From the NCBI GenBank assembly GCA_964016885.1, contig OZ024743.1, positions 53,320,001 through 53,384,000 of the forward strand: 64,000 bases of DNA. The letters are read 5' to 3'. The DNA comes from Eledone cirrhosa. Taxonomy: Eukaryota. Both the position numbers and the translations under genes were made by a program. Under the pieces are notes generated by a model. The model saw only the letters and a program-made list of their open reading frames with translations, was not told where the DNA came from and searched no databases. Below are positions 32,501-57,812 of this stretch, piece after piece (the stretch's first letter is position 1; each line of letters opens with the position of its first letter).

Positions 32501-33478
32501 GGGATGTTTGCTGGCAGGGTTATTATTTTCAGTTTTACGACAGAGCATAAGCTGCATCTGATACCTCAACCATCATAGATTTTTGCTCTTGTTGCAACAC
32601 TCCATCAGATAAATGGATTTCGTACGCCATGATCTTTCTGTTCTGAACGAGGAGAAGTGTCTTGCTCAAGAACACGAAGCACCACCGGGTATTTACGATC
32701 TTAAATAGGACAGCCTATTTACGAAGCCACGCATCTTCACCATGCCTACCTGATGTTAAATAACAGGTTTTATTGCAAAAAACTCCAACAGGCAAATCCA
32801 TCGACCCAGATTCCGTTGACGTAGCTGTGACGATGACAGCAATGGTTTTTAATTTACGCAAAAAACCCAGCAATATTAGGAGGGGGAAAGTTGATTAAAT
32901 CAATCCAACTAAAGTACTTGACTGGTATTTTATTTTATTAACTGCGGGAAGATGAAAGGTAAAGTTGACCTCGGTGGGATTGGAAATCAATAATGATAAG
33001 AGCATTAGTAAATAATGCGCAATTGAGAGAATGAAAAGCTAATAAGGAGGGGAAAAGGATTAAAGCCACCATGTTTGTATGTGTTGTGACACACTATGGT
33101 ATAGGACAGAACAAAGGAGGGACACAAAATAACAAATTACTCACTGAGAAGGTCACACAATGTGTGACGAAAGAGCTTTGACAATAAACAAACAACCAAC
33201 CGGTTATAAAACCAACCAGAAATTTGTAATAAATTGAAGGGAAAATCAACAGGTGCTGGTTTTTTTATTGGCAGCACGACCCTCCCAAAGTATAACGATA
33301 TATATATATATATATATATATATATATATATATATATATATATATATATATATATATATATATATATAGTAATAATAATAAATTTGAAGACTAAAATCCA
33401 AAGAGGGCTCGATAAGGATAAATATATATCAGATATATAAGAACCGGAGAGCAAATATTTATTAAAATAACAGAATAA

Positions 33479-33529
33479 AGTTTAAGCAAAGAATCGCTGC
33501 TTTCACCCTTAACGGGATCTTCTGAAACT
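33479..33529 (-). ncRNA. Type I hammerhead-like ribozyme (U4A core variant), inverted copy
   Basis: Reverse complement of 34039-34089. Confidence 0.55.
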
Positions 33530-34038
33530 AAAAAAGTCAATCTGTGAACGCAGAAGTAAATATTTCAAAAAACGTTGCAACCGAAGGAAGACAGGAAGAC
33601 GATACTTTGGTTCGTGGAAACGTTCCCTGGCAAAGAACGAAAAAAAACGAAGATAATACGTCATTATTTGGTGCGGTGAAAACAATTATACACACAGACA
33701 AAACCACGTTTATGGTATAAATGAAGTCGTAAACTAATATTCTATTAGGTGTTTCATGGAGACGTTCTCTGGCAATGAACGAAAAAAACGAAGATAATAC
33801 GTCATTATGTGGAGCGGTAGAGAACGTCTCTATTCTACGACTTCATTTATACCATAAACGTGGTTTTGTCTTTGTGTGTAATTGTTTGTCACCGCTCCAA
33901 ATAATGACGTATTATCTTCGTTTTTTTTCGTTCTTTGCCAGGGAACGTTTCCAGGAACCAAAGTATCGTCTTCCTGTATTCCTTCAGTTGCAACGTTTTT
34001 AGAAATATTTACTTCTGCGTTTACAGATTGACTTTTTT

Positions 34039-34089
34039 AGTTTCAGAAGATCCCGTTAAGGGTGAAAGCAGCGATTCTTTGCTTAAACT
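34039..34089 (+). ncRNA. Type I hammerhead-like ribozyme (U4A core variant)
   Basis: AGTTT-CAGAAGA-tCCC(gttaa)GGGt-GAAA-GCA(gcgattctt)TGC-TT^AAACT; stems I, II and III all pair. Confidence 0.58.
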
Positions 34090-54257: not shown

Positions 54258-54284
54258 TATATATATATATATATATATAATAAA

Positions 54285-57200
54285 TGAATAAGGAATAACG
54301 TGTTTCATTAGTCTGGTGTGTCTAAAAATCGCTGTTCGTAATTTAATTACACTCAATTTTAATTACAGTTGATACCCGACCAAATCTTCGGAATACTGAT
54401 CTGTGTGCATGATACAGTGCACAAATATTTATAGAAACATGAAAAATAACAAGAATAAAATCAATAATAATAAGAAGAGGGAAGGTGAACTGAGGAGGGG
54501 GATACTGGGATACAGGCATGAAAACAGTAATAATAATAACATGGAAAAAAAAGTGATATGAAAAGATGATACGATAAAGAAGATAATATAAAAAGGTTAA
54601 GGTAACTTGACAGTATAATAAAATGGGATGACATGAGACGAAAGGATAATGGCAACAGTCAAATAAAGTGGGGTGGGATGAATTAAATAGATGAAACAGC
54701 GAAATATAAAATAAAAAGATAATGATAACAGATGGGTAATTAGAATTGGGGTATTTTGAAAAGTAATATCTTAATGGAGGTGAAGATTGATGGTAACGTT
54801 TGCTATGTAGGGTGCTGTTTGTGAGAGGGTGTTTCTATAAAGAAGAAATACTTAATCGCTGAGGGAGTGTCGGTTGTTCTTGCGTCCGATTAGTCAAAAG
54901 TTCATTATTTCGCTTACTATTGGTAGGTGTAGGAAGCGTTCGCCCGTATGTTGTTAACCGTTAATCATGGTAAGGAGGTGTGAAAGTGGTTCGCTGACGC
55001 CAGTATTGTAGACGTTTTAAATATAGGGAGTTGCATTGTTTATATGGATAATGAGGTTGCTGGATCGAATCTTGTTCAACTCGGTTTGTAATTAGAAAAT
55101 TTACTAGCGGCTTTGTGCCTACAGAAAATTGTCCGCTCGATTTTGCTGTTAAGTAGCGTTTTATTATATTAGAGAATATGGAGTCATTCTGTATTGCAAA
55201 ATCTGCATTGGGACATCCCGTTCATGTAGGCTTTGGCATTTGATAATTTTGACCAGCTAATTTCATATCTTTGACTATTGTCTTTAAGCTGCCAGATTTT
55301 ATTGGCCAGCGTTGTTGTGTTACTGAGTTTCCGGTTATAGAGCACCGATGCACATACCGTTGTTTTTTTAAGTCACCAGCCGTAGAACCTATGTAATACC
55401 ACGCCAGGTTGCCAGACTTAATAGTGCACAGGTATACCATACTGGACTCCAGGCATCTATTCCGTAGTGGGCATTTATCTGGCAGGTGGCAGTTACATTT
55501 GGTGGCCTTCCTATGTGCAGGTTCCTCGTTATAGTTCGATGTGTGGTTTGAGATAAGCTGGGATACTGGTCTGTTGGTGTTTTGTTGTGACATATACTGA
55601 CGGACGGCTGGTTGTGATGCTGTTATGCGGTTGCGTATTGTACTTGATGTTGCGGTGTAGGTTAATGGAGAACAGTTTTTAGAGATTCTCCTGGAGTTAA
55701 GTTTATGTGGGATTCGATGTTCGCTGCGGTAGAATAAGAGAGCTTGATAGTTTTTCTATTGAGGATTCGATGGTATTTGTGTGATTTAGGGAAGTGCTTA
55801 TCGATTAAATTAGATAATATAGAAGGTAGGTTGGTCCTTATAGAGGAGTTGAAAATTGGATTGAACCACAAATACTTCCTAATTCTGGATTTCTTGGAGT
55901 TTCCGGAGGTTCCTATGCTAATATTCGGTTCAACTATTTTATGTCTAGTCCTATATTTGTTATTCCTATTAAGGCGGGTGGCATAATTGTTGCTCAGTTT
56001 GTATTTGTTGTTGTCGTCGCTATCATGTATGCATTTGAGCTCCTCCTTGTGGCCGGCTTTACCTAAAGCTATGTTATAGTAGTTTGCGTGTTCCTTAAAT
56101 ATTACTAGATAAGAGGACAGGCGGGATATTCTAAGGGATATACTATGCGCTATTGATTTAATTACGGGGCGAGGATGGCTGGAGTTATAACTAATGTAGG
56201 CTAGATTTTCGTTATTTTTATGGAAAGGCTCAATTAGTCTCGTGTTTAAGTTAAGTGTTACATCTAGGAATTTTGCTTTTTTTAAAATTTGGCTCGAAAG
56301 TAATATAGAGGCCTAGTCTATTGAAGAAAACCCCAATGTTTTTCCGTAACCTTTCCATGCTTTGATTGTTGATGTTTTTAGCTAAAAGGAGCATATCGTT
56401 TCTATAACCTCCTTGGAGGTTACTGAATTCCTTATATATGTTATGGGCTATATATATCCCTACTATGTCCGTGACTTGTGCTGAGTCTCTAAACCCAATA
56501 GTAATGTCAAAGCTATTTTGTCTATCCCGTCGCTCCCAGTAATTATTTTCGAATCTAATGAGAGTTCTCCTAGCAGCTAGTATTATTCTAATTTCATAGT
56601 TAGGTCTGAGTTTTTCCGGGCAAAATCAAGTGCCTTATTTAGGGTGACTGGAGAAATGGATCAGTTAATGTCAAATTGTATGAAGTTGGATGTTTCCTTA
56701 TTGTCTATTTTGTTAAATCATTCGATTGCCTTGCTAGTACGACCCTATAGTTTAATTTCTAGTTTGTCTTTGATCTGGGCTATTACCCTATCTAGTATAT
56801 GTTTGCTAATTCTACCTATATCTGATTTTGATGGGCATATCAGTCTAATTTTAGAGTCCGTTTCGAAATTATTTTTGTGATTTTTTATGTTAAATGTGGG
56901 GCTACATGGGGCTGAAGGCTCCGTCCTATCAGTAAGTTTCAGTTTTTTCACAATATTAAGTCTCCATTGTTAATGTCCTCGAATGAAGCTTCAGTAGTTT
57001 TCCTGTATTTTTTCTGCAGTTCCCGGCGTATAAAGTTGTTGTATGTGTCCAGGCTCATGGTGTATACGTTCGATGTTTTGTCCACTTTAACTATAAGTCC
57101 ATCAGTATTGCGTAATTTTTTCAACAGTGCATTGATGTCGTTCTGCAGTTTGTTGTGACCATTGCGTTTTTTTAACTTAGTTCCACTTATCATGTTCATG

Positions 57201-57812
57201 AGACCGAGTTCAAAAGCGTCAAGTTGGGGGTTACTTAGTGGGTTTTTGCAGGATTTAAATCTGTATTTCTCTTTAGTGTTTCCCTCAATATCATGTGTGT
57301 GTCCTTTGTCGTAATGATAGGCTTTCCATCGGATTTGACGGATGAAGTCATTAGTGCGCTGTATCATGCCGGGTGTTGTATAATTTCTGTTTGTAGATAT
57401 AAGTATGTTTTTTAATGACATGCCTATGTGGTGGTTTTCCATGTTAGTGCTGGGCGTTAAGGTTGTTACTCAACCTGGTGGGAGCTAAGTATATAAGTTA
57501 ACTAGATATCGTTTAAGGTAATCCAAGTAGAGGTTATGAGTACTCTGTATCGAGGATAGTTTTAACGTTCGGCGTTGTTTGACTCAACAAAAAGTTTACT
57601 TAATTGTGGTATTCGGGTGGTCGATTCAAGACAGTTCCTAGGTAAGCGGTTCTTGGAGTAAATCAGAGAAGAATAACGTGGATCGGCTGTACAATAGGGT
57701 TTATTCAAAATATTAACAAATGTTTTATTAGTCTAGTGTGTCTAAAAACTGCTGTTCATAAAAGGCTACGTCATTCGATTTTAATTACAGGTGATACCCG
57801 GCCAAATCAATA
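54285..57812 (-). mobile_element. Penelope-like element (Neptune type), near full length, decayed, with pLTRs at 54285-54410 and 57700-57812
   Basis: FIRQIRWKA, VDKTSNVY, RLICPSKSDIG, GYRNDML, FLDVTL, WFNPIF, CNC..CPL..RCL, MVY..YYIG; diverged direct repeats at both ends contain hammerhead remnants. Confidence 0.9.

What the first reader, a model, noticed from the sequence alone, without database searches (positions are those of the whole stretch)
33360..57812. Field of Penelope-like elements, each tagged with a different hammerhead ribozyme
Seen: within ~25 kb there are four minus-strand Neptune-type elements or fragments (35.3-37.5, 42.5-44.1, 45-48.3, 54.3-57.8 kb). Each has a hammerhead or remnant on the sense strand near its 3' end or pLTR, and further orphan hammerheads lie at 33.5/34.0, 49.2 and 50.3 kb. 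The ribozymes are unrelated in stem sequence but keep the core and often a palindromic stem III (TGCGCA, CAATTG, TATATA, CCGG), the arrangement known to favour dimeric cleavage. Several have a mismatch (U-U or A-A) at the base of stem II. Inference: many independent ribozyme-bearing families converge on (TA)n here, with a strand bias.
Basis: partly seen in the sequence, partly recalled or inferred. Interest (0 to 1): 0.75.

Follow-up and report, generated by a model that had tools for sequence, protein, structure and literature searches.

The report
Nested Hydra retrotransposons carrying hammerhead ribozymes
This stretch is an ordinary pile of broken jumping-gene copies, each ending in a predicted self-cutting RNA motif, in a genome holding at least 100,000 such motifs, where several abundant families carry altered core letters that likely slow or stop cutting.

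Summary
The elements and hammerhead motifs are real: 4 strict hits in 24.5 kb, 0 in 40 shuffles. But the four coding elements are Hydra-clade Penelope-like elements, not Neptune (RWK/RWR, DKT, CxCX5C, no CCHH). Craig 2021 already lists an octopus Hydra family, (TA)n targeting and U-U stem II bases. Element C spans 48.3-40.3 kb, with element B nested in its 3' UTR. The field is not exceptional: 6 of 40 background 20-kb blocks hold 4 or more strict hits, and hit counts track (TA)n density. Strand bias is unsupported (6 of 7 minus, p=0.125; the 50.3-kb motif is on +). More notable: three exact patterns alone give 100,065 motifs genome-wide. Abundant families are fixed for non-consensus cores: U4A (22,246 copies, young autonomous family), A6a insertion or U4C (element C lineage), U3-A8 (12,514). 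A scrambled-order hammerhead pair lies at 48.5/48.9 kb. The scan had already noted the U4A family and scrambled hammerheads on other DNA of this genome. Cleavage is untested; no RNA holder was listed.

The parts
33369..34113 (.). Family E two-armed pLTR fragment, the 3' end of a young Hydra family. Hammerhead with A at core position 4 on - (33479-33529) and on + (34039-34089)
35049..35189 (.). Short family E tail piece between (TA)n tracts, no full hammerhead
35252..37892 (-). Element A: 5'-truncated Hydra element with inverted 5' piece. Thumb/linker/endonuclease remnant 36638-37557, interrupted by a common short repeat (about 37000-37176)
35287..35352 (-). Hammerhead A: intact core, U-U at stem II base, palindromic stem III TATATA
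40266..48340 (-). Element C: full-length broken Hydra element. 5' pLTR about 48040-48340, frameshifted ORF about 44989-47981, 3-kb microsatellite-like 3' UTR, 3' pLTR ending at 40266
40309..40397 (-). Hammerhead C (3' pLTR): 8-nt core strand (one extra base after A6), A-A at stem II base, long stem II, stem III CAATTG
48092..48180 (-). Hammerhead C (5' pLTR): same motif with one stem II change
42523..44103 (-). Element B: 5'-truncated Hydra element (endonuclease end plus 3' UTR) nested in a (TA)n tract of element C's 3' UTR
42647..42717 (-). Hammerhead B: intact core, stem III TGCGCA, 8-bp stem I
48480..48952 (.). Two-armed repeat with a predicted scrambled-order (type SGC-like) hammerhead in each arm (core strands at 48539 on - and 48925 on +)
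49226..49302 (-). Orphan hammerhead H: intact core, hairpin stem III, GUC site; stem I 5' strand damaged in this copy; old family
50301..50341 (+). Orphan hammerhead F: U3-A8 covariant core, stem III CCGG; short (TA)n-flanked piece of an abundant family, no coding partner found
51250..51293 (-).
54285..57830 (-). Element D: full-length broken Hydra element, ORF remnant 55079-57484; both pLTR hammerheads decayed (54299-54397, 57709-57816)

Best explanation
This is a pile of broken, partly nested Penelope-like retrotransposon copies (four Hydra-clade elements plus short ends of five other families) whose 3' ends carry hammerhead motifs, and which likely landed here one by one because their endonucleases are inferred to target (TA)n tracts. 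Shown: the elements, their Hydra motifs, the nesting of B in C, the hammerhead folds, (TA)n at the 3' ends, and a genome background of similar density. Inferred: the element protein nicks (TA)n and reverse-transcribes its RNA from one of two fixed sites 30-130 nt downstream of the ribozyme. Frequent 5' truncation and inversion then leave short single or two-armed hammerhead pieces. Each insertion splits a (TA)n tract and element C brings its own tracts, so later insertions pile up. The hammerhead is inferred to trim or circularise the active parent's transcript slowly, as a same-family dimer or with protein help. The copies here are passengers and do not act together.
For: Motif scan of the window elements against the Hydra definition and the Hydra/Neptune alignment in Craig's supplement. 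Hydra-1_Obim, (TA)n preference and U-U stem II bases are listed there. At least 12 of 29 other C-family loci run from about 44.1-44.25 kb straight to about 42.5 kb without B (full copies). Background: 65 strict hits in 800 kb after dropping 33 tandem units; 6 of 40 blocks have 4 or more; Spearman 0.63 with (TA)n tracts. Two fixed 3' ends per family. Stem II of the A superfamily pairs in 236 of 304 cells against 27-51% when slid, with two-sided changes at 5 of 8 positions. Frangieh 2024: AT-rich nicking, internal initiation, and hammerhead mutants do not affect insertion in vitro (passages).
Against: Four coding remnants in 24.5 kb is above background (0.59 per 25 kb; 1 of 40 blocks has 4 or more, 2 of 40 have 3 or more), so the patch is in the upper tail. 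All four are on one strand. Element C (about 6.5 kb without B) is longer than the 'generally <3 kb' Hydra elements. No tree with published Hydra references was built. No cleavage or RNA evidence. Only 2 of 172 copy 5' ends fall within 2 nt of the predicted cleavage site, so the genome shows no footprint of cleaved linear templates.
Confidence: 0.85

Rival explanations
1. The hammerheads of several successful families no longer need to cut. The fold persists as a protein-binding or priming structure, or by inertia, while the CUGA strand drifts.
For: U4A in 22,246 of 23,104 exact 24-mer matches, in a young autonomous family (98% mean nucleotide identity among 30 endonuclease copies, 713-aa frames). 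The C lineage holds U4C, A6a-insertion and further drifted subfamilies. Single changes in the CUGA turn gave low activity in a deep scan (passage), and A6a had low activity. Catalytic mutants still insert in vitro.
Against: Ten core positions, G8 and G12 among them, are unchanged across six C-lineage subfamily consensuses while 40 of 127 other columns vary. That is p about 0.02 only if U4, A6 and N7 are set aside after the fact, and not significant otherwise. Family F keeps the 3-8 pair by a double change. U4 was not hit in a selection for inactivating mutations.
Confidence: 0.35
2. The locus is a special hotspot, or an intron of a plus-strand transcript in which sense-strand ribozymes were purged, giving a functional, strand-biased ribozyme field.
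For: All four coding remnants and 4 of 4 strict hits are on minus. The other 39.5 kb of the window has no strict hit.
Against: 6 of 7 gives p=0.125. Plus-strand motifs lie at 34.0, 48.9 and 50.3 kb. Both 200-kb flanks have hits on both strands. 6 of 40 background blocks are as rich. No host exon was recognised among the ORFs (by inspection).
Confidence: 0.08
3. The motifs are chance matches in AT-rich DNA.
For: Rfam gives no match at gathering score, and several window copies are decayed.
Against: 0 strict hits in 40 shuffles and in 1.6 Mb of shuffled background; 65,305 pattern matches against 74 for the reversed control; covariation.
Confidence: 0.01

Closest known systems
Hydra-clade Penelope-like elements, e.g. 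Hydra-1_Obim of Octopus bimaculoides (Craig et al. 2021, PMC8557442; introduction, Hydra section, passages, supplement parts 1-2 and search hits read)
   Same: RWK, DKT, CxCX5C linker, no CCHH, CxxC/CxH around E and N, C-terminal GIY-YIG, (TA)n insertion, type I hammerhead near the 3' end, often with U-U at the stem II base
   Different: The paper found a small number of new families, one in octopus. Here many abundant families coexist, element C has a 3-kb 3' UTR, and several families have non-consensus cores; all Hydra rows of File S2 have a consensus CUGANGA
Minimal hammerheads of metazoan Penelope-like elements (Cervera and de la Pena 2014, PMC4209133; parts 1-2 of 4 read)
   Same: Many unrelated families per genome, long stem II with an unpaired base, palindromic stem III, mostly solo or inverted pairs, U3-A8 variant, predicted dimers, low activity in vitro
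   Different: Counts given there are about 2,000-9,000 per genome; here three exact patterns give 100,065
Neptune/Nematis clade Penelope-like elements (as defined in PMC8557442)
   Same: C-terminal endonuclease, cysteine linker, microsatellite targets; the partner ORF of orphan G fits this type
   Different: Elements A-D lack DKG at the motif position, the CX2-5CxxC linker and CCHH
Natural hammerhead core variants (Perreault et al. 2011, PMC3088659; passages and one results part read)
   Same: U3-A8, the A6a insertion (low activity) and U4C are described
   Different: There they are rare cases; here they are fixed in families of thousands of copies. U4A is not named in the parts read
Non-LTR retrozymes (Cervera and de la Pena 2020, PMC7229834, passages; Li et al. 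2026 preprint, part 1 of 5)
   Same: Type I hammerheads in animal repeats; the axolotl has 126,247 motifs
   Different: No tandem 170-400 nt array in this field; one lies elsewhere in the genome

Membership tests
Hydra clade | N-terminal RWK motif | tested here: met
   RWR in C, RWK in D; A and B are truncated
Hydra clade | DKG changed to DKT | tested here: met
   C and D
Hydra clade | CxCX5C linker before the endonuclease | tested here: met
   A, C, D; B is truncated
Hydra clade | No CCHH (no cysteine pair between GIY and YIG); CxxC and CxH around E and N | tested here: met
   One cysteine only in A, C and D; CxxC..E and CxH in A, B, D; first cysteine lost in C
Hydra clade | Insertion in (TA)n and a 3' hammerhead | tested here: met
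Hydra clade | Generally short (<3 kb) | tested here: inconclusive
   D is 3.5 kb with both pLTRs; C is about 6.5 kb; the paper says 'generally'
Hydra clade | Reverse transcriptase groups with Hydra references in a tree | not tested
   References were compared by eye with the supplement alignment; no tree was built
Neptune clade | CX2-5CxxC linker | tested here: not met
   present in the partner ORF of orphan G, an internal control
Neptune clade | CCHH motif in the endonuclease | tested here: not met
   present in the G partner
Neptune clade | DKG motif | tested here: not met
   DKT at the homologous place; a DKG in D lies elsewhere, just after RWK
Type I minimal hammerhead | CUGANGA and GAAA..UH core with three stems | tested here: met
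   A, B, G intact; C, E, F variant cores; D and H damaged
Type I minimal hammerhead | Covarying stems | tested here: met
   A superfamily, 38 distinct stems II; related sequences inflate the shuffle control
Type I minimal hammerhead | Self-cleavage (monomer or dimer) | not testable with these tools
   No RNA holder listed
Rfam hammerhead families | Gathering score | tested here: not met
   0 matches
Non-LTR retrozyme | Tandem 170-400 nt hammerhead units | tested here: not met
   No such array in the field
Type SGC hammerhead (48.5/48.9 kb) | Scissile strand, then GAAA block, then CUGANGA, with stems I and III paired | tested here: met
   11 distinct copies with compensatory stems I and III; the pattern presupposes the order
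Type SGC hammerhead (48.5/48.9 kb) | Stem II closing next to GAAA | tested here: inconclusive
   The adjacent strands do not pair; a distant upstream strand could supply the partner

The most novel reading that the evidence does not exclude
This genome holds well over 100,000 hammerhead motifs (likely 150,000-250,000 with intact cores), about one per 12-20 kb and more than the largest count seen in the papers read. Several of its most successful Penelope-like lineages spread after changing the same part of the catalytic turn (U4A, U4C, an extra base after A6) while keeping G8, G12 and the stems. These would be natural slow-cutting or non-cutting ribozymes, showing that fast self-cleavage is not needed, or is selected against, in Penelope-like retrotransposition.
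Probability: 0.45. Interest if true: 0.6.

Novelty: new member of a known kind. Interest (0 to 1): 0.33.

Why it matters
As a locus it matters little: it is one of many similar patches. It does correct the clade label, and it shows how (TA)n-targeting elements build nests inside one another. The by-products matter more. Whether hammerhead cleavage does anything for Penelope-like elements is open. This genome offers matched natural families with consensus and non-consensus cores, one of them young, autonomous and with over 22,000 copies, so the question can be tested directly. A load of at least 100,000 motifs would also bear on host transcript processing if even a small share cut.

Tried and rejected
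Rfam scan by E-value: the best 150 of 244 rows shown held no hammerhead family, and 94 rows were not shown; at gathering score there were 0 matches. Pfam: only sub-threshold GIY-YIG hits in 2 of 13 proteins. A DNA search of the own genome with B's pLTR returned nothing, which is uninformative for very common words. Reading a decayed hammerhead just behind C's ORF at about 45.0 kb was rejected: family copies show no conserved core there, and the real one lies at 40.3 kb. Reading the 50.3-kb motif as decayed was rejected: it is a family-wide U3-A8 core. Reading the U4 copies of family E as ancestral was rejected: 9 of 9 checked (10 loci fetched, of 858 matches) are inversion junctions. Footprint of cleavage at copy 5' ends: 2 of 172. 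A Naiad partner for the scrambled motif: none among the longest frames of 29 loci. A coding partner for F: none seen upstream of 13 copies. RNA: no RNA holder listed. Three contig runs of one sample, of unknown kind and perhaps the source sample, showed no other letter at E position 4 above 5%; this is not independent evidence. Lunse et al. 2017 was not held, and I saw only the review's account of it. Supplementary figures of Cervera 2014 and Perreault 2011 were not opened and may already show U4A.
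Full report
Setting. The window is G000:C4:53320001-53384000 of a 3.0-Gb animal genome. An octopus-type host is my inference from the repeat content and was not tested.

Check of the observation. A translated search found four minus-strand Penelope-like remnants at 36638-37557 (A), 43768-44100 (B), 45121-47951 (C) and 55079-57484 (D), and none elsewhere in the window. A structure descriptor for type I hammerheads gave 4 strict hits in 33360-57812 (35344, 40393, 42709, 51285, all minus), and 2 more with one core mismatch (33524 minus, 34044 plus). 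Forty local dinucleotide shuffles gave means of 0.0 and 0.05. A looser first descriptor also took 49297. The motifs at 48170 (a stem II change), 50.3 kb (two core changes) and element D (decayed) fall below the descriptor and were read from family alignments. Rfam gave 0 matches at gathering score.

Clade. Craig et al. 2021 define Hydra by RWK, DKT, a CxCX5C linker, absence of CCHH, CxxC and CxH around the conserved E and N, canonical hammerheads and (TA)n targets (section read). C and D carry RWR/RWK and DKT. A, C and D carry CxCX5C. None has a cysteine pair between GIY and YIG. The supplement alignment sets Hydra rows against Neptune rows, and the window pieces follow the Hydra rows by eye. 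The supplement lists Hydra-1_Obim from Octopus bimaculoides, and many Hydra hammerheads with U-U at the stem II base. As an internal control, a copy of orphan G elsewhere flanks a 386-aa frame with RYLDD, a CX4CxxC linker and a cysteine pair inside GIY-YIG, the Neptune/Nematis type. So the four coding elements are Hydra by motif; no tree was built. Their endonuclease pieces are 26-43% identical to one another, so they are separate families.

Anatomy. Element C does not stop at 45 kb. At least 12 of 29 other C-family loci run from window position 44.1-44.25 kb directly into 42.5 kb without B, and full copies continue to the pLTR at 40.25-40.55 kb. B is therefore nested in a (TA)n tract of C's 3-kb 3' UTR, and C's two pLTRs carry the same hammerhead at 48.1 and 40.3 kb. 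The 33.5/34.0 pair is the two-armed 3' end of another Hydra family (E): a background copy joins this end to a Hydra thumb, linker and endonuclease. The families examined end at two fixed 3' sites, for E +29 and +115 from the predicted cut. This fits internal initiation of reverse transcription as reported for an anole element (passages).

Is the field unusual? I fetched 40 evenly spaced 20-kb blocks (30 on the four largest contigs, 10 on others) and 200 kb on each side of the window. The blocks held 98 strict hits. Of these, 33 were units of one 310-bp tandem array and were dropped, leaving 65 in 800 kb. Six of 40 blocks hold 4 or more, the flanks hold 8 and 14, and 1.6 Mb of shuffled blocks gave 0. 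At that rate 2.0 hits are expected in 24.5 kb (P of 4 or more 0.14). Counts are overdispersed (variance/mean 3.3) and follow (TA)n tracts (Spearman 0.63). The field has 18 tracts per 10 kb, against 12 in the blocks and 4 in the rest of the window. Coding remnants are more enriched: 4 against 0.59 per 25 kb, and 1 of 40 blocks has 4 or more. So the patch is upper-tail but ordinary. Orientation: 6 of 7 single-orientation insertions are minus (p=0.125), and neighbours of different families in the background split 22 same to 15 opposite.

Genome load. Exact patterns gave 65,305 A-type motifs (reversed control 74), 22,246 E motifs and 12,514 F motifs, 100,065 in all. My sample overestimated the A-type count 1.55-fold. 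The strict-core total is therefore about 157,000 when calibrated (my arithmetic) and 251,000 by direct extrapolation (bootstrap 141,000-381,000). The largest counts in the papers read are 126,247 in the axolotl (passages) and about 9,000 minimal motifs in Xenopus. Searches for 'hammerhead ribozyme' with 'octopus' and for Hydra, Penelope-like, cephalopod and ribozyme listed no paper on an octopus load. A 2026 Octopus vulgaris repeat paper has no occurrence of hammerhead, ribozyme or Hydra (term search). Subscription papers are not covered.

Are the folds selected? In 38 distinct A-superfamily motifs, picked by core letters only, stem II pairs in 236 of 304 cells against 27-51% when slid, with two-sided changes at 5 of 8 positions. 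Relatedness inflates the shuffle control there. Family F has U3 and A8 in 100 of the 100 matches listed, the compensated core known from Schistosoma and from Perreault 2011.

Fixed core variants. Family E has A at position 4 in 22,246 of 23,104 exact 24-mer matches. Nine of 9 U4 copies checked are inversion junctions, not ancestors. E is young and autonomous: 30 endonuclease copies average 98% nucleotide identity, and 713-aa frames exist. Element C's subfamilies have an 8-nt core strand in 40 of 41 copies (34 parsed by pattern, 6 read from the alignment). A sister subfamily of 36 copies has U4C, and rarer ones have drifted further. Perreault reports low activity for A6a and notes that the A6-N7 phosphate contacts U4. 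A deep scan found low activity for changes in the CUGA turn (passage), whereas a phage selection for inactivating changes did not hit U4 (part 1 of 2). Ten other core positions are unchanged across six C subfamily consensuses while 40 of 127 other columns vary, which is significant only under a choice made after the fact. Only 2 of 172 copy 5' ends lie within 2 nt of the cut site, whereas 16 of 69 E copies begin at the 5' edge of the fold. I measured the U4A family before finding that two earlier notes of this scan describe it.

Extra motif. At 48.5 and 48.9 kb an inverted pair carries the hammerhead blocks in the order scissile strand, GAAA, CUGANGA, with compensatory stems I and III among 11 distinct copies. 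That is the SGC order of Eckert 2023 (passages). Stem II does not close locally. Earlier notes prompted me to look for this and link such motifs to Naiad elements; I saw no Naiad frame in 29 loci.

Mechanism. Shown: elements, nesting, folds, (TA)n context and background. From the literature: AT-rich nicking, internal initiation, low or protein-assisted cleavage, dimers through the stem III palindrome, and no need for cleavage in one in vitro system. Inferred: independent insertion into shared (TA)n targets, partly supplied by earlier elements, with the hammerhead acting only in the active parent's transcript. Different stem III palindromes make cross-family dimers unlikely, so the field is not a joint system.

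Verdict. These are new members of a known kind; interest 0.33. The fixed core variants and the genome-wide load are the parts worth testing.

Noticed in passing
window 48480-48952: Inverted pair of a predicted scrambled-order hammerhead in a young repeat (97-98% identical copies, 2190 first-look candidates), with compensatory stems I and III; no Naiad frame seen in 29 loci.
   Followed up: partly
window 50006-50244, 50591-50845, 52606-52885, 62718-63172: About 240-bp (TA)n-flanked element with a long GC-rich hairpin; 100 hits in 1.74 Mb of fetched DNA, 33 in 800 kb of background blocks. Nature not determined.
   Followed up: no
L161-L162 (G000:C3:190000001-190020000): Tandem array of 310-bp hammerhead units (33 units seen, both orientations), retrozyme-like.
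   Followed up: no
L201:1403-3826, L202:1344-3767: Near-identical intact 808-aa Hydra frames related to element D, found at several places: a probably active family.
   Followed up: partly
L277-L285: In family E, 5' inversion at a near-palindrome over core position 4 creates a consensus-looking core at the junction in 9 of 9 such copies checked.
   Followed up: partly
family E copies: 16 of 69 copies begin at the 5' edge of the hammerhead fold (-42 to -49 from the predicted cut), suggesting that reverse transcription stalls or switches template there.
   Followed up: partly
window 53000-54270: Broken DNA-transposon-like piece with short terminal inverted repeats next to element D; Tc1/mariner label recalled, Pfam gave only a weak helix-turn-helix hit.
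   Followed up: no
window about 375-470 (-): Hammerhead-like motif with one core mismatch (core strand at 460) outside the finding.
   Followed up: no
window 12734-14074, 19380-25086, 26230-29841: Broken non-LTR retrotransposon frames (RTE-like and restriction-endonuclease-type; labels recalled, not tested).
   Followed up: no
window 30830-32502: Minisatellite region with 21-, 34- and 43-bp units.
   Followed up: no
window 7995-8052 (+): Weak tRNA-like Rfam match (28.1 bits, gathering 29), possibly a SINE head.
   Followed up: no
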